The notes under the pieces were generated by a model. The model had not been told where the DNA came from. It did not search any database and saw only the letters and a list, made by a program, of their open reading frames with translations. The position numbers and the translations under genes are program-made. From the IMG/VR virus record IMGVR_UViG_3300029136_000219, positions 56,475-120,474 of that record: a stretch of DNA of 64,000 nucleotides. The stretch is one strand, 5' to 3'. Shown here piece after piece: positions 43,630 to 53,843 of the stretch (position 1 is the stretch's first letter; each line of letters begins with the position of its first letter). This DNA comes from a virus.

Positions 43630-44862
43630 GTGGAGTATAAAATCGCAAAACCGGTAAGACTAATTGAGCTTTTTGCAGGTATTGGAAGTCAAGCTAAAGC
43701 ACTTGAATTACTTGGTGTTGATTTTGAACATTGGAAAGTTTGTGAATTTGATGATTATGCTATGAAAAGCTATAACGCAGTTCATAATACAAATTTTAAA
43801 ACATCAGATATTCAAAATCTTACCGCATCCGACTTGGAAATAAAAGATAAAGATAAATATGAATATATAATGACTTATTCATATCCCTGTACTGATATTT
43901 CGATTGCCGGCAAGAAAGAAGGTATGGAAAGAAACAGTGGTACTCGTTCAAGTCTATTATGGGAAGTCGAAAGACTTTTGAAAGAATGTGGTGATAACAA
44001 ACCTCAAATTCTATTGATGGAGAATGTAAGAGAATGCCATAACGGAAAAAATGCTCCATTGTTTTTTGAATGGACTTCATTTCTCCGCTCTATAGGATAC
44101 AAAAACTTTTACACAGATATGGATGCTAAAAATTATGGTATTCCACAAACAAGAAAAAGATGTTTTATGTTATCTATTCTTGATGAAAATGCTTATTATG
44201 AATTTCCACAAGCTTGTGATTTAAACTATTCAGTAAAAGAATTTCTCAAAGATAAAGTTGATAAAAAATACTATGTAAAAGAAGAAACGGCATTACCACT
44301 TATAAAAAAGATGGAAAAAGAGTGCCCCAGTGCAACTATCATTGATGATACATACGGCTTTGATAACAGTGAGGTAAGATTTTTTCCTAATGTGTGCCCG
44401 ACACTTAGAGCTGCAAAGGCTAACTTAAAATGTATTGTCGCTATGAGAGGAAGAAATTCTGATAGCCTAAATCAAACACCCGGTGCTTCTACTGAACAAC
44501 GGCTTGAAAAAAATAAAACCAATTGCTGTAATACAATTACAACAGTACAAAAAGATAATCTTATTTTTGAAAACAAACAGTTGAGAACTCTTACACCAAA
44601 AGAAGTATGGAGATTGTTTGGTTTTGAGGATAAAGATGTAGAAAATGCATCTGAATTTGTTCCTGATACACAATTATATAAACAGGGAGGTAATTGTATT
44701 GTTGTCAATTGCCTTGTTGCCATATTAGGACAGCTATTTAAAGGTAAAGAAAGCGTATATCGTGAAATTGCCAAAAAGCCTTTATTTGATGTTGATTCTC
44801 AGAGTCAATTGACTTTTTCAAATGATTCTGATGACATAAATTTATTTAATTTAACAGCTTGA
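43630..44862 (+). CDS. dcm: DNA (cytosine-5)-methyltransferase
   Basis: GTG after AGGAAGGGTGG. Motif I ELFAGIGS, motif IV YPCTDIS (PC), motif VI LLMENV, motif X QGGN. Confidence 0.8.
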   Translation: MEYKIAKPVRLIELFAGIGSQAKALELLGVDFEHWKVCEFDDYAMKSYNAVHNTNFKTSDIQNLTASDLEIKDKDKYEYIMTYSYPCTDISIAGKKEGMERNSGTRSSLLWEVERLLKECGDNKPQILLMENVRECHNGKNAPLFFEWTSFLRSIGYKNFYTDMDAKNYGIPQTRKRCFMLSILDENAYYEFPQACDLNYSVKEFLKDKVDKKYYVKEETALPLIKKMEKECPSATIIDDTYGFDNSEVRFFPNVCPTLRAAKANLKCIVAMRGRNSDSLNQTPGASTEQRLEKNKTNCCNTITTVQKDNLIFENKQLRTLTPKEVWRLFGFEDKDVENASEFVPDTQLYKQGGNCIVVNCLVAILGQLFKGKESVYREIAKKPLFDVDSQSQLTFSNDSDDINLFNLTA

Positions 44863-46664: not shown

Positions 46665-46735
46665 ATTCTGCGAACTTTTTGCGAATATTGACGATTTTTT
46701 CAAATTTTTCTGAAATATTTGCGATTATATAATGT
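46665..46735 (+). promoter_or_regulatory. conserved promoter-like cassette
   Basis: TCTGCGAACTTTTTGCGAATATTG...GAAATATTTGCGATTATATAATGTAAGG. Confidence 0.5.
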
Positions 46736-46750
46736 AAGGAGAAAAAAGCA

Positions 46751-47371
46751 ATGGGATCAAGCTTTAATAAGTTCAAAATTGTTGATAAAGAAACAACAAT
46801 AGTTTACACACAAGATGTAAATGGAAACATCAATGGTAAATTCTATATTGATACTGAAGATTTGTCAAAAGTCCTTATGGTTAAATGTCGTATTTATAAC
46901 GGCAGAGTAATCTACGACCATCCGGCTGAGGATGGAAAATGTAGGGGGCAAAGACAACTTAGTAGATACATTATGGGTATTGCCGAAGATTACGATGTCA
47001 ATGACAGAAAAAGCTCAGTAGTTGTGGACCATATAGACCACAATCCTTTTAACAATAAAAAATCAAATTTAAGAATTATTACATATAAAGAAAACTTAAA
47101 AAATAGAACAAATGCAAATGATTGTGAATTTTTTAAAGGCATAGCTTTTCGTAATAATTATTATATTGTGAGTATCTGTTACAAGAAAAATTCTGTTTAT
47201 TTAGGACAATACAAAAAATTTCATGAGGCTCTTTTTGCTCGTTTTTTTGCGGAAAAAATGATTTTCGGTGAAGTTAAACAAATGGAAAGACCTACAAAAT
47301 TGAGTGAAGATAGAGAAAAGGAAATAGCTAATAAGGTTATTGCCAAGGTTGTGCTCCTCCAAACTGCCTGA
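46751..47371 (+). CDS. HNH homing-type endonuclease
   Basis: VVVDHIDHNPFNNKKSNLRII gives an HNH motif (DH...N...N). Confidence 0.65.
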   Translation: MGSSFNKFKIVDKETTIVYTQDVNGNINGKFYIDTEDLSKVLMVKCRIYNGRVIYDHPAEDGKCRGQRQLSRYIMGIAEDYDVNDRKSSVVVDHIDHNPFNNKKSNLRIITYKENLKNRTNANDCEFFKGIAFRNNYYIVSICYKKNSVYLGQYKKFHEALFARFFAEKMIFGEVKQMERPTKLSEDREKEIANKVIAKVVLLQTA

Positions 47372-47382
47372 AATTGTTAATG

Positions 47383-47444
47383 TTTTGTAAACACTGAGAA
47401 AAATCACAAATTTTTTTGAAATATTCGCGATTTATATAATGTAA
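47383..47444 (+). promoter_or_regulatory. conserved promoter-like cassette
   Basis: TTTGTAAACACTGAG...GAAATATTCGCGATTTATATAATGTAAGG, directly upstream of the TnpB/Cas12-like gene. Confidence 0.5.
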
Positions 47445-47467: not shown

Positions 47468-49264
47468 GTGCCGGAAAAAGAAAAAAAGAATCAATATATT
47501 TTATCAATGGGCTTAGAAATTAATGCTGATGATAAAATTTATCTTGATAAGTATTTTGAATTTGTAAGAAAAATGCAAAATTATTTTATTTCTTATCAGC
47601 TAAAAAAATATAACAAAATGGTAAGAGAAACAAATTATCAAGAATTAAAAATTCAAATTGATAATATTGATAAAGCTATTTCTAATTTTTACAGACAAAT
47701 TATAAACCGTCAAAAAGTTATTGATGAAGGTGAAATATCTAAATGTGAAATCACTTCATACAAGAATGAAATTGCAGAATTGAAAAAAGATATTTCTTCT
47801 TTGAAAAAAGAAAAATCAAAATATCAAAAGCAAATTTATGAACTTTTGAAAGAATACAGGTTTAGTGATTTAAGTTTTAAATCCGATGTAGCTATATTTG
47901 ACAAAATTGATTATTTCACAAAACCTTGTTACAAAACAAAGAATGGTAAGCTTGCAAGAGATAAAAATGGTAACAAAATTCCTATTCTCGATGAAAACGG
48001 AAATGTAAAAAGAAAATGTTTTGTCTCTTCATTAGTGAGAAAATATTCTATTGCTGCACCGATTTGGTCAGCATTTGATAAAAAGTTCAAGGAAAACGGT
48101 GCAGTCCATTTTAAAAGCTTTTTTAATAAAAAATCAGTCAGCTCTATTGCATTCCCAGTTGGTAATTCTTTCAAAGGTAACAATGCTTTTGTTATTCCTT
48201 CTGTAGGCAAAATAATTAAATATAAAATACCAAGAACCCAATACGAAAAGGAAGTATTTAACAAAGAAAATGTTAATGTTATCCGAATTAAAAGGATTTG
48301 GAAGAATACAAAATACAGCTATTCGGTTCAGTTTACTATAACAGGTGAACCTGTGTTAAGGAAAGACAAAGATAATTGTGTCAAACATCCACTTGGCACT
48401 GGTGTAGCAGGTGTAGGTATAAGTTTAAATGAATGTTGGATTTGCACTGAGAACACATTAAAAAGAGTTTCTTTAGTTCCACCTGATGCTTATGAGTTTG
48501 ATAATGAAATAAAACAAATTGAAAGAGCAATGGATAGAAGTAAGCGTGCTACTAATCCAAATAATTTTGATGAAAAGGGTAGGGCAAAGAGCTTTTACGA
48601 AACGCCTGACCCTGATAACCCAGACAAAATCATCAAGTCAAAGCTCCGTTGGAGATTTTCAAAGCATTACAGAAAACTAAGTCAAAGAAAAGCTTATTTG
48701 GAAGGTATTAATGCCAGAAAGCGTAAGCTTTATGACGAAAACCTTGTGAATGAATTATTGCTGTATTTCAATGAAATCAATATTCAAAAGAATGATTTCA
48801 AGAGAACTCAAATGAGTAAACAAAAAGTCGGTGACAGCGCCGATGAAAAGAAAAAGGCTGGTTTACATATTAAAGAAGCATCACCTTCACAGTTCGTTGA
48901 AATTCTTAAAAGAAAAGTCATCAGCCACGGTGGTAAAGTAAATATCATTACTAAAAAGGAATGTCAAGCAACAGAATTCAATCATATAGACGGTAAGTTC
49001 TATGATATGCCTGTTTCTAACAGGTGGTTTGGTATGAGTGATGGTAATGTTCTTCAAAGAGATGCTCATACGGCTTTTAATCTATTGACACTTAATGATA
49101 TAGAAAAAAGCAACAAACTTTATGATGACTTTTTAAAACAACATTCTGCCGAACTTGAAAAGTTTAATGTTGTTGCACCTGAACAGGTAAATATGGTTAC
49201 TTGCAGTCAGGCAAAAGAAAAAAGAAAGTCAGCAAGAAAAACAAAAAAGAAAAATATTGCATGA
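47468..49264 (+). CDS. TnpB/Cas12-like RuvC-fold protein (candidate compact type V effector)
   Basis: GTG after AAAGGAGG. C-terminal QRDAHTAFNLL matches the RuvC-III RDxNAAxNI motif. GVGISLNE occupies the RuvC-I GIDLG position, and NELLLYFNEINIQKND the RuvC-II position. Beta-rich WED-like block (NTKYSYSVQFTITGE). N-terminal coiled-coil. Degenerate zinc-finger region. Confidence 0.55.
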   Translation: MPEKEKKNQYILSMGLEINADDKIYLDKYFEFVRKMQNYFISYQLKKYNKMVRETNYQELKIQIDNIDKAISNFYRQIINRQKVIDEGEISKCEITSYKNEIAELKKDISSLKKEKSKYQKQIYELLKEYRFSDLSFKSDVAIFDKIDYFTKPCYKTKNGKLARDKNGNKIPILDENGNVKRKCFVSSLVRKYSIAAPIWSAFDKKFKENGAVHFKSFFNKKSVSSIAFPVGNSFKGNNAFVIPSVGKIIKYKIPRTQYEKEVFNKENVNVIRIKRIWKNTKYSYSVQFTITGEPVLRKDKDNCVKHPLGTGVAGVGISLNECWICTENTLKRVSLVPPDAYEFDNEIKQIERAMDRSKRATNPNNFDEKGRAKSFYETPDPDNPDKIIKSKLRWRFSKHYRKLSQRKAYLEGINARKRKLYDENLVNELLLYFNEINIQKNDFKRTQMSKQKVGDSADEKKKAGLHIKEASPSQFVEILKRKVISHGGKVNIITKKECQATEFNHIDGKFYDMPVSNRWFGMSDGNVLQRDAHTAFNLLTLNDIEKSNKLYDDFLKQHSAELEKFNVVAPEQVNMVTCSQAKEKRKSARKTKKKNIA

Positions 49265-49280
49265 CAGCAATGTTGATATA

Positions 49281-49427
49281 GGTAGACTTAGCTACCTAAA
49301 ACTACCGGTAAACGCATTTTTGTGTTTGGTAGTAATGAAATAATTAAGGTTAAGCAGTTAGTTGGTTTGCGTTTGTCAGAACTTAATAGAGCTGTTTGAC
49401 AAGATTATACAGTGTAATTAATTTGAG
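49281..49427 (+). promoter_or_regulatory. conserved structured leader 1 (~147 nt) with sigma70-like promoter TTGACA-17-TAATTT abutting the first repeat
   Basis: Three copies (49281, 50588, 51416) about 90% identical. Hairpin GGTAGacttagCTACC, which shows compensatory change to GGCTG/CAGCC in copy 2. Confidence 0.6.
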
Positions 49428-49529
49428 GTTTTGGTACTGTAGTAGATTACACTACTCTAAAAGAAATATATTGGGAGTGTCTGAAAAATCCATGTTTTGG
49501 TACTGTAGTAAATTACACTACTCTAATTA
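49428..49529 (+). CRISPR. mini CRISPR array 1 (2 repeats, 1 spacer)
   Basis: 36-bp repeat GTTTTGGTACTGTAGTAGATTACACTACTCTAAAAG. 30-bp spacer AAATATATTGGGAGTGTCTGAAAAATCCAT. Second repeat is degenerate at its 3-prime end. Confidence 0.7.
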
Positions 49530-49578
49530 CACCATTTGGTGTGTTTTATATAAAAAATAATTTAGGAGGAAAAAATAT

Positions 49579-49680
49579 ATGTCATTCAATATGGTTATGG
49601 TTATTATTTGTGCTGTAATTCTTGTTGCTTGCATTATTGCTCTTATTGTAAGAGGCATTAAGAGTAAGCGCAATAAGTAA
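49579..49680 (+). CDS. tiny membrane peptide (33 aa)
   Basis: TAGGAGGA RBS. MSFNMVMVIICAVILVACIIALIVRGIKSKRNK. Paralog at 53224. Confidence 0.4.
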   Translation: MSFNMVMVIICAVILVACIIALIVRGIKSKRNK

Positions 49681-49735
49681 TTAAGTACAAATACAGCATC
49701 CCCGGATACGCTGATTAAACATTATCCGGGAATGT

Positions 49736-49823
49736 GACAATGTAGTTTAACGGTAAAACACAAAAGTTGTTTTTTTGATCCTCCTTCGACTTTTGGATGT
49801 AAGTTCAAATCTTACCATTGCCA
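49736..49823 (+). tRNA. atypical tRNA-like gene (class-II-like long variable arm, anticodon loop GTTGTTT, no encoded CCA)
   Basis: Acceptor stem GACAATG/CATTGCC with one mismatch. D-stem GTTT/AAAC. Anticodon stem CAAAA/TTTTG. Variable arm ATCC...GGAT. T-arm GTAAG-TTCAAAT-CTTAC. Anticodon identity ambiguous. Confidence 0.4.
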
Positions 49824-49832
49824 ATAAGATAT

Positions 49833-49915
49833 GCTGATGTGATGGAATGGCAGACAGAAGAGACTTAAAATCTCTTGGTGGAAACATCGTGTGAGTTCGA
49901 CTCTCACCATCAGCA
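49833..49915 (+). tRNA. tRNA-Leu(TAA)
   Basis: Acceptor GCTGATG/CATCAGC. Anticodon stem-loop AGAGA-CTTAAAA-TCTCT. Long variable arm. T-arm GTGAG-TTCGACT-CTCAC. CCA encoded. Confidence 0.75.
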
Positions 49916-50266
49916 CCACTGCAGGGCCCAAGTGAAAGGTCTAAGAAGTTTCACAACGGTATAAGATATTTCTTGGCTGGTTTTTGCCGTGTGCTGGAAT
50001 GCACTGAATCAATAACCTTACAGACAGTATCAAAAAAGTTAGGACTTTTTGTATTGGAAGGGTTGCTGACCTTTCCGTAGTTTTTCTAATGATTTAAAGG
50101 AAGTTAAGCAAAAGTGTACATATTACTTTACTGAATTTAATCACCGTATTAACACGCTGATAGACAGTATTTCTCCCACAATTCGGGAAGTAAAGAGATC
50201 TATTGGTTGAAAGTAAATGGATACGGCAGAACAGTGCACATCTGCCGTATCACGATTATTAAATAC

Positions 50267-50338
50267 GCAGATATGATGTAATCGGTAGCATACAACTCTT
50301 CCACAGTTGGTGTGCGAGTTCAAACCTCGTTATCTGCT
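50267..50338 (+). tRNA. tRNA-Gly(TCC)
   Basis: Acceptor GCAGATA/TATCTGC. Anticodon stem-loop CAACT-CTTCCAC-AGTTG. T-arm GCGAG-TTCAAAC-CTCGT. CCA encoded. Confidence 0.75.
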
Positions 50339-50347
50339 CCAAAATAT

Positions 50348-50420
50348 TCTCCATTAGTTCAGAAGGTAGAACGGTAGACTGTTAATCTATATGTCATTGG
50401 TTCAAATCCAATATGGAGAG
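50348..50420 (+). tRNA. tRNA-Asn(GTT)
   Basis: Acceptor TCTCCAT/ATGGAGA. Anticodon loop CTGTTAA. T-arm ATTGG-TTCAAAT-CCAAT. CCA encoded. Confidence 0.75.
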
Positions 50421-50426
50421 CCAAAC

Positions 50427-50499
50427 GGACCGTTAGCTTAGTAGGTAAAGCAACCGGCTCATAACCGGTAAACCATGGGTTCAAATCCTATACGGTCCA
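50427..50499 (+). tRNA. tRNA-Met(CAT), elongator-type (or Ile-lysidine)
   Basis: Acceptor GGACCGT/ACGGTCC with base-paired 1:72. Anticodon stem-loop ACCGG-CTCATAA-CCGGT. CCA encoded. Confidence 0.75.
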
Positions 50500-50505
50500 C
50501 CATAT

Positions 50506-50578
50506 GTGTCATTAGCTCAGTAGGTAGAGCAACAGACTTTTAATTTGCAGGTCAAGGGTTCAATTCCCTTATGACACA
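50506..50578 (+). tRNA. tRNA-Lys(TTT)
   Basis: Acceptor GTGTCAT/ATGACAC. D-arm GCTCAGTAGGTAGAGC. Anticodon loop CTTTTAA. T-arm AAGGG-TTCAATT-CCCTT. CCA encoded. Confidence 0.75.
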
Positions 50579-50587
50579 CCACTTAAT

Positions 50588-50736
50588 AGGGCTGAATTAG
50601 CAGCCTGATGCTACTGGTAAACACATTTTTGTGTTTGGTAGTAATGAAATAATCAAGGTTAAGCAGTTAGTTGGTTTGCATTTGTCAGAACTCAATAGAG
50701 CTGCTTAACAAGATTATATAGTGTAATTAATTTGAG
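50588..50736 (+). promoter_or_regulatory. conserved structured leader 2 with promoter TTAACA-17-TAATTT
   Basis: See leader 1. Hairpin GGCTGaattagCAGCC. Second stem AAACAC/GTGTTT, where copy 1 has a G-U wobble. Confidence 0.6.
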
Positions 50737-50904
50737 GTTTTTGTACTGTAGTAAATTACACTACTCTAAAAGCGCCGCAGAATTGCTTCCACGGTGGTCT
50801 TTGTTTTGGTACTGTAGTAAATTACACTACTCTAAAAGGACAGCTACAGTTTTAGGCACGGTTTTCTTGTTTTTGTACTGTAGTAAATTACACTACTCTT
50901 AACG
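50737..50904 (+). CRISPR. mini CRISPR array 2 (3 repeats, 2 spacers)
   Basis: Repeats GTTTTTGTACTGTAGTAAATTACACTACTCTAAAAG, GTTTTGGTACTGTAGTAAATTACACTACTCTAAAAG and a degenerate terminal repeat ...CTCTTAACG. Spacers CGCCGCAGAATTGCTTCCACGGTGGTCTTT and GACAGCTACAGTTTTAGGCACGGTTTTCTT (30 bp each). Confidence 0.75.
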
Positions 50905-50967
50905 TTGTTTGTTTTGAGAAATGCAAGACAAAGAGTAGTAAATTTCATTTAAAAGAGGAAAAAATAA

Positions 50968-51408
50968 ATGCATTTAGATACAGCAGTAATATTTTTTATT
51001 GGTGTTCCTGTATATTTGCTAATGGCATTATTATCAAGAAAATTTGCGTATGTTGAAGCATCAATTGGATTGCTAATATGTTCAATTGTTAGCCTATTTA
51101 CAGAAAACACAGGAATAATTTGTTTGGTGATATATTTTGGACCATTCATTGTTTCAGCTATTATGAAACCAATAGAAAATAGGATAAATAAAAAGAAACA
51201 AGAAAAAGAATTGCATAAATTTGCGGATATGCAAAAAGGAAAGGTGGGTGTTATCCATGAATTAGAAGATGGCAACTTATATTTATTCCTCTCAGGTAGA
51301 TATTGGCAAATATCCGAACAGTCGAGAATTAAATATAATTGTGAGGAACAAGATGCCGTTAAGGTATTAGATATTAATACAGATAGACTTATCGTTAAGC
51401 CTATTTAG
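50968..51408 (+). CDS. membrane protein
   Basis: AAGAGGAAAAAA RBS. Three TM helices. Confidence 0.55.
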   Translation: MHLDTAVIFFIGVPVYLLMALLSRKFAYVEASIGLLICSIVSLFTENTGIICLVIYFGPFIVSAIMKPIENRINKKKQEKELHKFADMQKGKVGVIHELEDGNLYLFLSGRYWQISEQSRIKYNCEEQDAVKVLDINTDRLIVKPI

Positions 51409-51415
51409 TATATAT

Positions 51416-51563
51416 GGGTAGACTTAGCTACCTGAAACTACCGGTAAACGCATTTTTGTGCTTGGTAGTAATGAAATAATCGAGATTAAGCAGTTAGTTG
51501 GTTTGCATTCGTCAGAACTTAATAGAGCTGTTTGATAAGATTATGTAGTCGTAATAATTTGAG
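51416..51563 (+). promoter_or_regulatory. conserved structured leader 3 with promoter TTGATA-17-TAATTT
   Basis: See leader 1. Coordinates +/-1. Confidence 0.55.
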
Positions 51564-51727
51564 GTTTTAGAACCATATATAACTACACTACTCTAAAAGG
51601 ACGAGGCTTATGTTGATTTCGGCGGCACGGTTTTAGAACCATATATAACTACACTACTCTAAAAGGTCTGAGATAGTTGCAACAATAAAAAACTTTGGAA
51701 CTGTATTATATTACACTATTTTTTAAA
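51564..51727 (+). CRISPR. mini CRISPR array 3 (2 good repeats plus a degenerate third, 2 spacers)
   Basis: Repeat GTTTTAGAACCATATATAACTACACTACTCTAAAAG. Its 3-prime 18 nt are shared with arrays 1 and 2; the 5-prime part is divergent. Spacers GACGAGGCTTATGTTGATTTCGGCGGCACG and GTCTGAGATAGTTGCAACAATAAAAAACTT. Coordinates +/-1. Confidence 0.65.
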
Positions 51728-51744
51728 AAAAGGAGATAAAAATT

Positions 51745-52149
51745 ATGCTAAAAATTGCAAAACCAAACTTCTTCGTAAATGAAGAAAAGAGAACAATCGT
51801 TGGTAAGTTGATTATGCCGGATGATAAAGAATTATTTGATGTTGCTCAATTAGTTGACGAGGTTGACGAAGATTTCTGTTATGAAAATCTTAAAAATTCC
51901 TATGACTTTACTATTTTTGAAGCAAAGGCAAAGTGCTGCCCCGAAGACAAGTGGGATGTAGAAAAAGGAAAGGCCATTGTTAATGAACGATTGGGTAAAA
52001 TGATTATTCAAAGAGTTAAACGTCAGGCTAAAGAAGAAAGAACAAAAATTATTAATCGTATCAGTGAACTCGATGAAATCATAAAGCATTGTGATAAAAG
52101 CATCGACAATTCAAACAAACATATTGATAAAATTATCAAGGGGGAATAA
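51745..52149 (+). CDS. hypothetical protein
   Basis: AAGGAGATAA RBS. Confidence 0.55.
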   Translation: MLKIAKPNFFVNEEKRTIVGKLIMPDDKELFDVAQLVDEVDEDFCYENLKNSYDFTIFEAKAKCCPEDKWDVEKGKAIVNERLGKMIIQRVKRQAKEERTKIINRISELDEIIKHCDKSIDNSNKHIDKIIKGE

Positions 52150-52151
52150 TT

Positions 52152-53102
52152 ATGAGTTTAGCTAAGAAAGTATTATCGGTTGGTATTGCTTCTATTATGG
52201 CAATGTCAGCTATTGGAGTTGGCACTACTGCACTTGCCGAACCAATTAATTCTGTTCAGTCGGCTACTTCAATTTCACTAAATGAGAGTAAAACTGTGAC
52301 CTTGAAATATGGTGATATTGGTAATTATGATGACATCTCGGAAGATACTGTTTACTATAAGTTTACTGCTCCGACCACTAATTATTATGAATTTACCTTA
52401 ACAGGTTACAAGACAAGAATTGATAATAATGACCCAAGTGCTTATATTGATATAACAGATGAATATGGCGTCAATGCATCGTCAAGTGGGGGCTTATTTA
52501 ATCCGTATTTTAATGATGTAAAATCAATTGCCTATTTGGAACAAGGAAAGTCATATATAATCAATGTCTTTTACTCACCAATTGGTACTCAAGAGTACAA
52601 TTCAAAGGACTATGCCGAAACAGCAATTACACTAACTGTTTCTCCACATACACATGACATTACAAGTGTCGTTAATGACGGATATACAGACTACACCTGC
52701 AAGCGTTGCAATTATTCATATACCGAATTTAAACCGTTACCGACATCTCCTTCACAGCCTACACAGGCTCCTACAAGCACTGTTACTCCAATAACAGCAA
52801 GTAAGGTATCAAAGCCAAAAAAGACTAAAATTAAAAAGGTAAAGGCTGCTAAGAAGGCATTGGCAGTTACTTGGAATAAAGTATCCGGCGTAAAAGGTTA
52901 TCAAGTACAGGCTGCAACAGACAAAAAGTTCAAAAAGAACAAGAAAACTGTTACAATCAAGAAGCAAAAAACTACTAAGACAACCGTAAAGAAACTTAAA
53001 GCTAAGAAAAAGTATTACGTAAGAGTAAGAACTTACAAGACCATAAATGGAAAAAAGGTTTACTCGGCTTGGTCAAGTGTAAAAAATGTAAAAACTAAAT
53101 AG
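52152..53102 (+). CDS. secreted protein with C-terminal K-rich FN3 module
   Basis: Signal peptide. C-terminus KGYQVQAATDKKF...YYVRVRTYKTINGKKVYSAWS parallels the LRR protein tail. Confidence 0.65.
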   Translation: MSLAKKVLSVGIASIMAMSAIGVGTTALAEPINSVQSATSISLNESKTVTLKYGDIGNYDDISEDTVYYKFTAPTTNYYEFTLTGYKTRIDNNDPSAYIDITDEYGVNASSSGGLFNPYFNDVKSIAYLEQGKSYIINVFYSPIGTQEYNSKDYAETAITLTVSPHTHDITSVVNDGYTDYTCKRCNYSYTEFKPLPTSPSQPTQAPTSTVTPITASKVSKPKKTKIKKVKAAKKALAVTWNKVSGVKGYQVQAATDKKFKKNKKTVTIKKQKTTKTTVKKLKAKKKYYVRVRTYKTINGKKVYSAWSSVKNVKTK

Positions 53103-53117
53103 ACTTTTTTGTAAATC

Positions 53118-53160
53118 TAAAAAGCACCATAGAATTTTGATTTTCTATGGTGCTTTTTTA
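53118..53160 (+). terminator. rho-independent terminator
   Basis: AAGCACCATAGAAttttgattTTCTATGGTGCTT, then a T run. Confidence 0.7.
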
Positions 53161-53175
53161 TTTTTCTAAAAATAA

Positions 53176-53600
53176 AAAACTTGCGCGATATATATATTGA
53201 ACGAAGCAGTTAGGAGGAATGTTATGACACTTACAGGAAACATAATTTTGCTGATTGTATGTTCAATTACATTTATTGCAAGTTTGACGGCTCTCATTTT
53301 GAGAAGTGTCAAAAAACACAAAAAATGAAAAAATTTAATATTCAAAAATTTTAAAAAGTTGCGCGATATATAAAGTGAAAGGTGAATAACACTCATTTGA
53401 TATTAGAAATTTGGAGCTTGATTATAACCTTTCTGAAAATAAAAAAATTGCGCGATATAGAAAATGGTGAGGTTAAACCGCACTGGCGTAAATATCGTAT
53501 TGAAAATTATAAAAAATCAAATAGAACCTGCTTTGAGTGTATATTTTGAGGATTTGTATTTGATTTTATGAAAAAAAATTTTCTTGCGCGATATCTTAAG
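53176..53600 (+). repeat. four short promoter-like repeats (A/T-run + TTGCGCGATAT + A/T) within 430 bp
   Basis: Copies at about 53176, 53357, 53443 and 53578. Core shared with the long cassette (TTGCGATTTATATAG). Confidence 0.5.
53224..53328 (+). CDS. tiny membrane peptide (34 aa)
   Basis: AGGAGGAA RBS. MTLTGNIILLIVCSITFIASLTALILRSVKKHKK. Paralog of 49579. Confidence 0.4.
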   Translation: MTLTGNIILLIVCSITFIASLTALILRSVKKHKK

Positions 53601-53843
53601 TGACAGCACTAATAATCGAGCTGTTCAAAAGGCTGGATAAGCCGTTATTATGATTGTTTTAGTCTGAATATTACATAAAAATACTTGAATTAAAGGGCTT
53701 ATACAAACATTGTTATTTACTCTTCGGGCAAAAATAATTCACTTTTTTGATGATATCAGGCTTGAACATATATCTATTCAATGCATCTAAACAAAATACT
53801 ACTTTCCGCATTGGAAATCTAATGAAAGGAGAACATATAGTAC

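What the first reader, a model, noticed from the sequence alone, without database searches (positions are those of the whole stretch)
49281..51563. Three copies of a ~147-nt conserved, structured leader with compensatory base changes and a consensus-like promoter aimed at the first repeat
Copies at 49281, 50588 and 51416 are about 90% identical. The 5-prime hairpin is GGTAG/CTACC in copies 1 and 3 and GGCTG/CAGCC in copy 2, a double compensatory change. A second stem, AAACGC/GTGTTT in copy 1, has a G-U wobble that becomes A-U (AAACAC) in copy 2. The 3-prime end of each copy carries TTGACA (or TTAACA or TTGATA), 17 nt, then TAATTT, positioned so transcription would start at about repeat nucleotide 1. 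Covariation implies selection for structure. That is unusual for a plain CRISPR leader. The element may be a tracrRNA-like or scaffold RNA, a Cas-binding site, or a processing signal. The segment CAGTGTAATT in leaders 1 and 2 is complementary to AATTACACTG-like sequence in the repeat (9 nt).
Basis: seen in the sequence. Interest (0 to 1): 0.65.

Follow-up and report, generated by a model that had tools for sequence, protein, structure and literature searches.

The report
Transposon-derived guide scaffold before phage CRISPRs
The three conserved "leaders" most likely encode the RNA scaffold of a transposon-type guide RNA, still joined to the first repeat of three tiny CRISPR arrays in a large phage, next to a Cas12-like protein that has probably lost its DNA-cutting site; this looks like a living intermediate between transposon guide RNAs and CRISPR.

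Summary
Three ~152-nt blocks (49276, 50585, 51412; 87-91% identical) each precede a mini-array of 36-nt repeats and 30-nt spacers.

The blocks are more than plain leaders. A covariance model built only from the phage leaders finds its best hit 5-15 nt after the stop codon, same strand, in 9 of 10 loci of related active IS200/IS605 TnpB genes. That is where omegaRNA lies. A structure-blind alignment recovers hairpins 1 and 2, with compensatory changes in 13 of 16 pairs.

The adjacent 598-aa protein has a TnpB/Cas12f fold. Two of its three RuvC carboxylates are replaced (D to G317, E to Q440), yet dN/dS is 0.12.

Best reading: leader plus first repeat is an omegaRNA-derived scaffold with three stem-loops. 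An anti-repeat pairs with repeat nt 18-27, and 9 linker nt precede the guide.

The arrays turn over at the leader end. One spacer matches 28/30 an intergenic site in a gut prophage- or ICE-like element (5' flank TTGAC).

The proposed promoter is unverified: its -35 hexamer lies in a helix and its variants are compensated.

All leaders end in ATTTGAG|GTTTT, the type II-A leader-repeat junction. No cas1/cas2 was found in the window.

New variant of a known kind (TranC / TldR-like).

The parts
47468..49264 (+). Gene for a 598-aa TnpB-family (compact Cas12-like) protein that is probably nuclease-dead: RuvC-I D replaced by G317, RuvC-II E replaced by Q440, RuvC-III D532 kept.
   Evidence: No Pfam, NCBIfam or PDB sequence hit. 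Homologs are TnpB 'transposases' at 25-33% identity, E down to 1e-35. AF2 pLDDT is 82.9. Foldseek top hits are TnpB 8h1j (4e-11), Cas12f, Cas12p, Cas12m and LaTranC. dN/dS is 0.116 against the L005 ortholog.
49276..49427 (+). Scaffold ('leader') copy 1. H1 49280-49297, H2 49301-49333, H3 49340-49408, anti-repeat 49410-49419 (CAGTGTAATT), junction motif ATTTGAG 49421-49427. It starts 12 nt after the effector stop codon.
   Evidence: Homology to omegaRNA of TnpB relatives.
49428..49529 (+). Mini-array 1: repeat 49428-49463, spacer 49464-49493, second repeat 49494-49529 with a degenerate 3' end.
49528..49552 (+). Terminator-like hairpin plus T-run that closes array 1.
49735..50581 (+). Six tRNA genes. 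tRNA-Lys ends 3 nt before scaffold copy 2, so copy 2 is likely co-transcribed with the tRNA cluster (inferred).
   Evidence: No terminator is predicted between 50581 and 50585.
50585..50736 (+). Scaffold copy 2. H1 50589-50606 (GGCTG/CAGCC variant), H2 50610-50642, H3 50649-50717, anti-repeat 50719-50728 (TAGTGTAATT; 10 bp with the repeat), ATTTGAG 50730-50736.
50737..50904 (+). Mini-array 2: repeats at 50737, 50803 and 50869 (the last is degenerate); spacers 50773-50802 and 50839-50868. Spacer 50773-50802 matches 28/30 a site in L024/L025.
51412..51563 (+). Scaffold copy 3. H1 51416-51433, H2 51437-51469, H3 51476-51544 (GC to AU compensated pair), variant anti-repeat around 51545-51555 (GTAGT[C]GTA), ATTTGAG 51557-51563. 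It starts 3 nt after the end of ORF 50968-51408.
51564..51729 (+). Mini-array 3 with a variant repeat (GTTTTAGAACCATATATAACTACACTACTCTAAAAG) at 51564 and 51630 and a degenerate third repeat near 51694. Spacers are 51600-51629 (unique to this phage) and 51666-51693 (shared by all related phages).

Best explanation
Each ~152-nt 'leader' is the DNA for a guide-RNA scaffold descended from the omegaRNA of an IS200/IS605 TnpB.

It is read on the + strand, together with the upstream gene or tRNA cluster. It folds into three stem-loops (H1, H2, long H3) and ends in a short anti-repeat that pairs with nt 18-27 of the 36-nt repeat. Scaffold, first repeat and first spacer therefore form a natural single-guide RNA: scaffold, terminal helix, 9-nt linker CUCUAAAAG, 30-nt guide. 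The leader-repeat junction sits in the enlarged loop of what was the terminal omegaRNA hairpin. Later repeat-spacer units would have to pair with a scaffold in trans, as a tracrRNA:crRNA pair.

The RNA loads the adjacent 598-aa TnpB-like protein. That protein has lost two RuvC carboxylates, so it probably binds DNA next to a 5' motif (candidate TTGAC) and blocks it rather than cutting. Its targets are competing mobile elements.

The last 7 nt of the leader (ATTTGAG) plus GTTTT probably act at the DNA level as the spacer-integration site.

Shown here: homology and covariation with omegaRNA, the fold and residue changes of the protein, purifying selection, spacer turnover, and one protospacer. 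Inferred: transcription, loading, use in cis versus trans, binding without cutting, and who inserts the spacers.
For: 1. Model R1 was built only from phage leaders. Its best hit lies 5-15 nt after the stop codon, + strand, in 9 of 10 loci of active TnpB relatives: L023, L026-L031, L033, L034 (10.6-22.1 bits). Several of these loci carry Y1 TnpA. Copy 1 starts 12 nt after its own stop codon.

2. A structure-blind MAFFT plus RNAalifold run on 12 sequences recovers H1 and H2. Of 16 pairs, 13 show both-side changes. On the model-fitted alignment, 42 of 54 pairs have both-side changes and 94% of cells are paired, against 72% in shuffles and 30-50% when the partner is slid.

3. Within the phage clade, 44 pairs are about 99% paired, with compensated changes at pairs 8-19, 9-18, 74-125 and 37-50. 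Many G-U pairs are present, so the structure exists only on the + strand.

4. Leader divergence from the L005 ortholog is 15%, against 37% at synonymous sites of the neighbouring gene.

5. The layout matches the published operational definition of Cas12f / Cas12n / TranC guide RNAs: 3-5 stem-loops, an anti-repeat pairing within the last 16 nt of the repeat, and a short unpaired stretch before the guide. The IS copies L029 and L030 show the omegaRNA ending exactly at AGTTTCAG|guide. The model aligns that end with CUCUAAAAG|spacer.

6. The 3' 16 nt of the repeat are identical in all arrays, while positions 6-20 differ between arrays 1/2 and 3. This is the pattern expected for a type V handle.

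7. The protein has a TnpB/Cas12f fold, with D to G317 and E to Q440 and dN/dS 0.116.

8. The arrays are live. Leader-proximal spacers differ among phages whose effectors are 97-99% identical, while the distal spacer is shared. One spacer has a 28/30 match in an intergenic site with 5' flank TTGAC.
Against: - There are no expression data, so transcription of the scaffold and its binding by the protein are inferred.
- The anti-repeat helix is only 8-10 bp. In copy 3 it is not better than chance (6 contiguous nt, P = 0.9).
- Homology of H3 and of the terminal helix to omegaRNA rests on an alignment fitted to the model. The model's E-values are rough.
- One relative (L015) gave no hit.
- The 55%-identical sister clade of dead proteins (L003) has no leader or array within 2.2 kb downstream.
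- A TTGACA-17-TAATTT promoter inside the scaffold, if it were the only promoter, would give transcripts that lack the scaffold.
- The TAM rests on one protospacer, seen in two related contigs.
- Loss of nuclease activity is inferred from residues only.
Confidence: 0.72

Rival explanations
1. Ordinary CRISPR leader. The block carries the array promoter (TTGACA-17-TAATTT) and integration signals. Its hairpins are an evolutionary relic of an omegaRNA, or incidental, and have no present RNA function. The three copies are simply segmental duplicates.
For: A perfect -35 hexamer in copy 1, with 17-nt spacing to TAnnnT, is conserved in position in all copies. ATTTGAG|GTTTT is a known leader-repeat junction. 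Spacer turnover is polar.
Against: The scan does not call the promoter. The -35 variants are compensated in the opposite arm of H3 (pairs 74-125 and 76-123). Compensated changes in H1 and H3 arose between the paralogs, that is, after the element had become a leader. The 5' 78 nt, far from any proposed promoter, diverge 15% against 37% at synonymous sites. The G-U pairs are strand-specific.
Confidence: 0.12
2. Structured 5' processing or insulator element. The RNA is transcribed and folded, but it only defines ends or stabilises pre-crRNA cut out of long polycistronic or tRNA transcripts. The effector does not bind it.
For: Each copy abuts an upstream gene or tRNA with no room for a terminator or promoter. 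Of 75 ORFs, 71 are on the + strand.
Against: The element is homologous to omegaRNA scaffolds, which in characterised TnpBs are bound by the protein (PDB 8h1j and 8exa titles). Its 3' end pairs with the repeat as in compact type V guides.
Confidence: 0.08
3. Host-Cas9 hijack. The arrays are type II-A-style mini-arrays that feed the host's Cas9 and use host tracrRNA. The neighbouring TnpB-like gene is functionally unrelated.
For: The ATTTGAG|GTTTT junction, the 36-nt repeat and the 30-nt spacers are typical of type II-A. No cas genes were found in the window.
Against: The 5' half of the repeat, which a Cas9 crRNA keeps, differs at 9 of 15 positions between arrays, while the 3' half is invariant. 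The repeat ends in G, not the C reported as universal for type II-A first repeats. The leader is homologous to the omegaRNA of the neighbouring protein's own relatives. No type II-style anti-repeat exists elsewhere in the window. The gene-leader linkage is kept in all related contigs and in L005.
Confidence: 0.05

Closest known systems
omegaRNA (reRNA) of IS200/IS605 TnpB
   Same: Same position (a few nt after the stop codon), strand and length (about 170-250 nt). Homologous H1 and H2 with covariation. An H3-like long hairpin, a terminal helix, an 8-9 nt linker, then the guide.
   Different: There is no TnpA and there are no IS ends. The terminal hairpin loop is expanded to 25 nt and holds a leader-repeat junction. 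The guide is a replaceable spacer followed by further repeats. The scaffold exists in three copies, two of them away from the protein gene. The protein lacks two catalytic residues.
TranC (transposon-CRISPR intermediates; Jin et al., Cell 2025, as cited in PMC13565253 and bioRxiv 10.64898/2026.03.27.714800)
   Same: A TnpB-sized effector inside a TnpB clade, linked to short CRISPR arrays with 32-38-nt repeats and no adaptation genes. The guide derives from an omegaRNA by a break in its 3' part. LaTranC is a structural match.
   Different: Here the scaffold is still covalently upstream of the first repeat, in the same transcript orientation and 8 nt away. It is repeated for each mini-array. The RuvC site is degenerate, so no nuclease activity is expected. 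Clade membership could not be tested.
tracrRNA of Cas12f / Cas12n
   Same: It lies between effector and array. It has 3-5 stem-loops followed by an anti-repeat that pairs within the last 16 nt of the repeat, then a short unpaired stretch before the guide. The family profile's best PDB sequence match is RdCas12n (E 1.7e-7).
   Different: It is not a separate gene with its own visible promoter or terminator. The anti-repeat is short (8-10 bp). There are three copies.
TldR and dCas12f (nuclease-dead TnpB/Cas12f-derived RNA-guided transcription factors)
   Same: A TnpB-fold protein with an inactivated RuvC, under purifying selection, sometimes phage-encoded, using an omegaRNA-like single guide. 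dCas12f loci with CRISPR arrays and covarying RNAs upstream of them are reported.
   Different: The guides here sit in arrays whose leader-proximal spacers turn over between near-identical phages. The known target is another mobile element, not a fixed host promoter. There is no sigma factor or HTH partner next to the gene. Sequence relatedness to TldR clades was not tested.
Type II-A CRISPR leader (group 1, ATTTGAG/GTTT)
   Same: Identical 7-nt leader end and repeat start, a 36-nt repeat and 30-nt spacers.
   Different: The repeat ends in G, not C. There is no cas9, cas1, cas2 or csn2 in the window. The rest of the leader is an omegaRNA homolog.

Membership tests
TnpB omegaRNA (IS200/IS605) | Encoded at or just after the 3' end of a tnpB-family gene, on the same strand | tested here: met
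   Copy 1 starts 12 nt after the stop codon at 49264. Relatives' hits start 5-15 nt after their stop codons. Copies 2 and 3 are detached from the gene.
TnpB omegaRNA (IS200/IS605) | Sequence and structure homology to omegaRNAs of related TnpBs | tested here: met
   R1 hits in 9 of 10 loci. H1 and H2 are recovered by structure-blind alignment, with 13 of 16 covarying pairs. The 3' half is supported only by the model-fitted alignment.
TnpB omegaRNA (IS200/IS605) | Part of a mobile IS with TnpA and LE/RE ends; the guide is the DNA flanking the right end | tested here: not met
   No Y1 transposase among the 75 window ORFs. The guide is a CRISPR spacer that differs between phages.
Compact type V tracrRNA (Cas12f / Cas12n / TranC) | Anti-repeat between effector and array, pairing at least 6 of 10 nt within the last 16 nt of the repeat | tested here: met
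   Seven contiguous bp (UACACUA) fall in the last 16 nt for copies 1 and 2; 8 bp with a bulge for copy 3. Statistical support is modest: P = 0.05, 0.01 and 0.9.
Compact type V tracrRNA (Cas12f / Cas12n / TranC) | 100-200 nt with 3-5 stem-loops 5' of the anti-repeat | tested here: met
   H1, H2 and H3 lie within 134 nt.
Compact type V tracrRNA (Cas12f / Cas12n / TranC) | Expressed small RNA that acts in trans with crRNA and is bound by the effector | not testable with these tools
   Needs RNA-seq, RIP-seq or reconstitution.
TranC / type V effector nuclease | Intact RuvC D-E-D triad (RNA-guided DNA cleavage) | tested here: not met
   G317 replaces D and Q440 replaces E; D532 is kept. The sister clade is also degenerate.
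TranC / type V effector nuclease | TnpB-fold protein linked to a CRISPR array | tested here: met
   Fold. Arrays directly downstream in the window and in five related phage contigs. In L005 the contig ends inside the leader, so only the gene-leader link is seen there.
TldR-like nuclease-dead RNA-guided DNA binder | TnpB homolog with a mutated RuvC, kept under purifying selection | tested here: met
   (dN/dS 0.116).
TldR-like nuclease-dead RNA-guided DNA binder | Guide complementary to a promoter region, with binding that represses transcription | tested here: inconclusive
   One spacer matches a 140-nt intergenic region upstream of a gene in L025/L024. No promoter was mapped and repression was not tested.
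Generic CRISPR leader | Directly upstream of the first repeat, with new spacers added at that end | tested here: met
   the proximal spacer differs in each phage and the distal one is shared.
Generic CRISPR leader | Contains the array promoter | tested here: inconclusive
   TTGACA-17-TAATTT is present but is not called by the scan and overlaps helix 3.
Type II-A CRISPR array | Leader end ATTTGAG followed by a repeat starting GTTT; repeat about 36 nt, spacer 30 nt | tested here: met
   (three leader sites; 0.1 expected in the window).
Type II-A CRISPR array | First repeat ends in C; cas9-cas1-cas2-csn2 and a tracrRNA adjacent | tested here: not met
   The repeat ends ...AAAAG. No such Pfam families appear among the 25 listed of 30 families hit by the 75 ORFs. 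No type II-style anti-repeat in the window.

The most novel reading that the evidence does not exclude
The modules are chimeric. An omegaRNA whose terminal hairpin loop was opened has been joined to a type II-A-style leader-repeat junction (ATTTGAG|GTTTT). This would let a phage-borne, nuclease-dead TnpB-type system have its guides renewed by the host's type II-A Cas1-Cas2(-Csn2-Cas9) machinery.

If so, this is an 'unsplit' intermediate in the birth of type V CRISPR: a single-guide omegaRNA that has already gained a repeat and an exchangeable spacer. It would also be a case of adaptation borrowed across CRISPR types by a virus.
Probability: 0.2. Interest if true: 0.9.

Novelty: new variant of a known kind. 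Interest (0 to 1): 0.72.

Why it matters
[quoted passage not shown] Here the scaffold is still fused to the first repeat, and its homology to the omegaRNA of living IS elements can be traced base pair by base pair. The position of the split, in the loop of the terminal hairpin, can therefore be read directly and tested.

The locus also shows a rare, selected, probably non-cutting TnpB derivative in a large gut phage, with guides that turn over and at least one that targets another mobile element. This would extend RNA-guided silencing (TldR, Cas12m, Cas12c, dCas12f) to conflict between viruses and other mobile elements.

The type II-A-like junction gives a concrete, testable idea for how arrays without adaptation genes get their spacers.

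Practically, the system offers a ~600-aa programmable DNA binder with a defined natural single-guide design.

Tried and rejected
- Rfam (E up to 1) finds nothing on the leaders, only tRNAs.
- Pfam, NCBIfam and PDB sequence searches of the protein give only coiled-coil noise.
- The leader and repeat were not found outside one phage clade. Viral and metagenome pattern scans return only five related contigs plus one chance hit, L010. The 3' half of the repeat has no match in 185,579 species genomes.
- The window has no near match in GenBank phages.
- Sixteen spacers have no match in the phage or plasmid collections. Five spacers scanned in IMG/VR gave no protospacer: four matched only their own arrays and one matched nothing. 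There is no self-target in the window.
- Only one spacer found a target, in genome contigs.
- A second profile search found no further members of the dead clade.
- L003 (55% homolog) and L015 (P0010) gave no convincing model hit.
- No other anti-repeat exists in the window.
- A terminator role for H1 or H2 is rejected: no T-run follows them.
- A coding role is rejected: all three frames of the leader contain stop codons within the first ~25 codons (read).
- A first, gapless dN/dS attempt was wrong because of indels. It was redone on a codon alignment.


Full report
**1. Observation**

Reading 48000-53500 and running a repeat search confirm three copies of a conserved block at 49276-49427, 50585-50736 and 51412-51563. 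They are 87-91% identical over 188 nt when the first repeat is included.

Each block is followed by a mini-array of 36-nt repeats and 30-nt spacers: two, three and three repeats, the last one degenerate in each array.

- GGTAG/CTACC versus GGCTG/CAGCC in hairpin 1;
- AAACGC/GTGTTT versus AAACAC/GTGTTT in the second stem;
- TTGACA / TTAACA / TTGATA, 17 nt, then TAATTT;
- a 9-10 nt complement between the leader's 3' end and the repeat.

The + strand folds better than shuffles: z = -3.05, -4.88 and -2.17.

**2. Context**

The window has 29.9% G+C, and 71 of 75 ORFs of at least 80 aa lie on the + strand. Phage-type genes are present: YopX, T4-type RNA ligase, RNase H, DNA methylases and an HNH endonuclease.

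Six tRNA genes lie between array 1 and copy 2. tRNA-Lys ends 3 nt before copy 2. Copy 1 begins 12 nt after the stop codon of a 598-aa ORF. Copy 3 begins 3 nt after ORF 50968-51408. No terminator is predicted in these short gaps, so transcripts of the upstream genes should run into each block. This is an inference.

No Cas1, Cas2, Cas4 or Cas9 family appears among the Pfam hits of the 75 ORFs.

The same three-module layout occurs in five related contigs of 11-413 kb from IMG/VR and metagenomes. There is no near match in GenBank phages.

**3. The neighbouring protein**

It has no Pfam, NCBIfam or PDB sequence match. Its homologs outside a tiny clade (P0001-P0008) are TnpB 'transposases' at 25-33% identity, with E-values down to 1e-35. 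Several of these sit next to a Y1 TnpA.

An AlphaFold model (pLDDT 82.9) matches ISDra2 TnpB (E 4e-11), Cas12f, Cas12p, Cas12m and LaTranC.

In the family alignment, anchored by a profile match to RdCas12n, the residues change as follows:
- RuvC-I Asp (GIDIG) is Gly317;
- RuvC-II Glu (VETM) is Gln440;
- RuvC-III Asp532 is kept.

The 55%-identical sister clade is also degenerate at these positions.

The gene is not decaying. Against the 88.6%-identical ortholog in L005, dN/dS is 0.116 with dS 0.51. I infer an RNA-guided DNA binder that does not cut. This is not shown.

**4. Structure within the phage clade**

On 13 distinct leader-plus-repeat sequences, RNAalifold gives three hairpins with 44 pairs. 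About 99% of cells are paired.

Both sides changed at pairs 8-19 and 9-18 (H1), 37-50 (H2, in L005) and 74-125 (H3). Most one-sided changes are G-U to A-U or G-C switches. The many G-U pairs mean the structure exists only in + strand RNA.

Pair 74-125 involves the C of 'TTGACA', and pair 76-123 its G. The variants TTGATA and TTAACA are thus matched by changes in the opposite arm.

The first 78 nt of the L005 leader differ from copy 1 by 15%, while synonymous sites of the adjacent gene differ by 37%.

**5. Homology to omegaRNA (the decisive result)**

A covariance model was built only from the phage leaders (R1). It was run without filters over loci of active TnpB relatives.

In 9 of 10 loci the best hit lies directly after the tnpB stop codon on the coding strand:

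| Locus | Hit | Bits |
|---|---|---|
| L023 | 1536-1662 | 16.9 |
| L030 | 2523-2685 | 19.9 |
| L029 | 2523-2685 | 18.0 |
| L028 | 2455-2618 | 15.1 |
| L027 | 2494-2667 | 12.3 |
| L026 | 1664-1757 | 10.6 |
| L033 | 2263-2446 | 22.1 |
| L034 | 2327-2489 | 13.4 |
| L031 | 2097-2225 | 11.4 |

The single E-values are rough. But a top hit starting within about 15 nt of the stop codon, on the right strand of a ~3-kb locus, has a chance of about 0.003 per locus.

A structure-blind MAFFT alignment of the first ~80 nt, followed by RNAalifold, again gives H1 and H2. Of 16 pairs, 13 have compensatory changes. The shared linear motifs are UAU(R)CUA(Y)CG(Y)UAA and UUG(R)UAGU(R)A.

On the model-fitted alignment, 42 of 54 pairs change on both sides and 94% of cells pair. 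The controls give 72% in shuffles and 30-50% when the partner is slid. That alignment leans towards the structure.

Two copies of one IS (L029 and L030) show that the omegaRNA ends exactly at ...GGCGTGGGAGTTTCAG|flank, with TTAC at the left end. The model aligns the terminal hairpin of these omegaRNAs with the leader's anti-repeat:repeat helix, and AGUUUCAG with CUCUAAAAG.

Leader plus first repeat therefore corresponds to a whole omegaRNA scaffold. The terminal loop (4-6 nt in the IS copies) has grown to 25 nt and now holds the leader-repeat junction.

**6. Fit to known compact type V guides**

A recent survey defines Cas12f / Cas12n / TranC tracrRNAs operationally:
- an anti-repeat between effector and array;
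- pairing of at least 6 of 10 nt within the last 16 nt of the repeat;
- 120-200 nt with 3-5 stem-loops upstream;
- a short unpaired stretch before the guide.

The phage element fits this definition. The 3' 16 nt of the repeat (TACACTACTCTAAAAG) are identical in all arrays, while positions 6-20 differ at 9 of 15 sites between arrays 1/2 and array 3. That is expected if the 3' part is the handle.

The anti-repeat itself is the weakest link. Perfect complements of 9 and 10 nt in copies 1 and 2 have shuffle P of 0.05-0.07 and 0.01. Copy 3 has only 6 contiguous nt (8 bp with a bulged C), P = 0.9.

**7. The promoter claim**

The consensus scan does not report TTGACA-17-TAATTT, because the second hexamer matches only 3 of 6 and no TG extension is present. 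The -35-like hexamer is part of H3 and covaries with its partner.

An embedded promoter remains possible and would not contradict the scaffold reading. It is not needed, given co-directional upstream transcription. It is unverified.

A terminator-like hairpin closes array 1 at 49528-49552.

**8. The arrays are in use**

There are sixteen distinct spacers across six phages. In array 3 the leader-proximal spacer differs in every phage, while the distal one (51666-51693) is shared by all. The window and L001 have 99%-identical effectors yet differ in one proximal spacer.

Several spacers have 43-57% G+C (read), well above the 30% of the phage.

Spacer 50773-50802 matches 28 of 30 nt a site in two MAG contigs, L024 and L025, which are 88% alike over 1.5 kb. 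The site lies in a 140-nt intergenic region after a regulator-like gene. The element carries an excisionase-type HTH gene and resembles human-gut phages. The 5' flank is ...TTTGAC in both contigs, so TTGAC is a candidate TAM. The related IS has TTAC.

**9. An unexpected junction**

All leaders, in all phages, end with ATTTGAG followed by a repeat that starts GTTTT. The window contains ATTTGAGGTTT four times, three of them at the leaders, against 0.1 expected.

This is the group-1 type II-A leader-repeat junction, found in 87 of 167 loci (PMC5382924). Sequences within 10 bp of this junction are required for adaptation in S. thermophilus CRISPR1 (PMC4330368). From memory, the array-2 repeat also shares its first 11 nt with the S. 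thermophilus CRISPR1 repeat.

The repeat, however, ends in G, not the C reported for all type II-A first repeats. I treat borrowing of a host type II-A adaptation module as a hypothesis (probability about 0.2).

**10. Mechanism proposed**

- Shown: the block is an omegaRNA homolog under selection for + strand RNA structure. The adjacent TnpB-fold protein lacks two catalytic carboxylates but is under purifying selection. Spacers turn over at the leader end, and at least one targets another mobile element.
- Inferred: scaffold, first repeat and first spacer are made as one RNA that acts as a natural single guide. Further repeat-spacer units use a scaffold in trans. The complex binds DNA next to a 5' TTGAC-like motif and blocks it. 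ATTTGAG|GTTTT directs spacer integration by machinery encoded elsewhere.
- Supporting the cis arrangement: most arrays hold only one or two spacers, and each array keeps its own scaffold.

**11. Rivals**

- A plain leader with relic hairpins (0.12) is disfavoured by compensated changes that arose between the paralogs and by the low divergence of the 5' part.
- A mere processing or insulator element (0.08) does not explain the homology to protein-bound omegaRNA scaffolds.
- Host-Cas9 use (0.05) conflicts with the conservation pattern of the repeat and with the leader's ancestry.

**12. Comparison and novelty**

The element works like an omegaRNA or a compact type V tracrRNA. It is not a member of an IS, since TnpA and IS ends are absent. 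Its effector fails the nuclease criterion of TranC and Cas12.

It resembles TldR and dCas12f systems in having a dead effector, and the hybrid loci noted for dCas12f, where CRISPR arrays lie near full-length guide RNAs (PMC13472631; PMC10691335).

New here:
- a scaffold still fused to the first repeat;
- triplication of scaffold-plus-mini-array modules, one of them directly behind a tRNA cluster;
- a rare phage clade of dead effectors, with only eight 90%-identity cluster representatives (P0001-P0008) among the 5.8 billion clusters searched;
- a type II-A-like junction.

I rate it a new variant of a known kind.

**13. Limits**

There is no expression or binding evidence. The TAM rests on one protospacer. 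Homology of the 3' half rests on a model-fitted alignment. Clade placement relative to the published TranC, V-U and TldR groups was not possible. The complete phage genomes were not searched for adaptation genes.

Noticed in passing
window 46677-47432: The HNH endonuclease ORF (46751-47371) lies between two copies of a 50-nt direct repeat (46677-46726, 47383-47432). In related phages L001 and L002 the same repeats are 252 nt apart instead of 706. The HNH gene therefore looks like a mobile insertion just upstream of the effector gene.
   Followed up: partly
window 53156-53604: Four copies of a ~46-nt motif with the core AAAAA-N-TTGCGCGATAT, each ahead of a small ORF. They are conserved in L001 and L002 and are candidate phage-specific promoters.
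   Followed up: no
window 49735-49824: ARAGORN calls a tRNA-Thr(tgt) that is 90 nt long (Rfam tRNA 48.8 bits). This is unusually long for a Thr tRNA.
   Followed up: no
window 49919-50266: A 340-nt non-coding gap between the two tRNA groups, with a terminator-like hairpin at 50055-50077.
   Followed up: no
window 49580-49681 and 53225-53328: Two small ORFs with good ribosome-binding sites encode ~33-aa hydrophobic peptides (MSFNMVMVIICAVILVACIIALIVRGIKSKRNK and MTLTGNIILLIVCSITFIASLTALILRSVKKHKK). The first lies right after array 1.
   Followed up: no
L003 2476-2900: The 55%-identical, also RuvC-degenerate homolog P0006 has no leader or array within 2.2 kb downstream. Instead it has two promoter-like sites, each followed by a hairpin and a T-run (about 2497-2600 and 2798-2890). 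These may be small RNAs; its guide RNA is unknown.
   Followed up: partly
L024 1334-1363 and L025 4515-4544: The protospacer for window spacer 50773-50802 (28/30) lies in an intergenic region between a regulator-like gene and the next gene of an element with an excisionase-type HTH gene. The element is distantly similar to human-gut phages, and the 5' flank is TTTGAC.
   Followed up: partly
L029 / L030 453-2681: Two copies of one IS200/IS605 element (TnpA plus TnpB P0036) in different contexts give exact ends: TTAC at the left, and ...GGCGTGGGAGTTTCAG at the right. The LE and RE hairpins are alike.
   Followed up: yes
L004 194-3371: The homolog P0008 (443 aa) is truncated relative to its relatives. 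It is followed by an IS200/IS605 element (tnpB plus Y1 tnpA) on the opposite strand, so an IS insertion may have cut it.
   Followed up: no
window 43999-44009 (- strand): A fourth exact ATTTGAGGTTT lies inside the DNA methylase gene, with no repeat-like sequence after it. It is probably chance.
   Followed up: no
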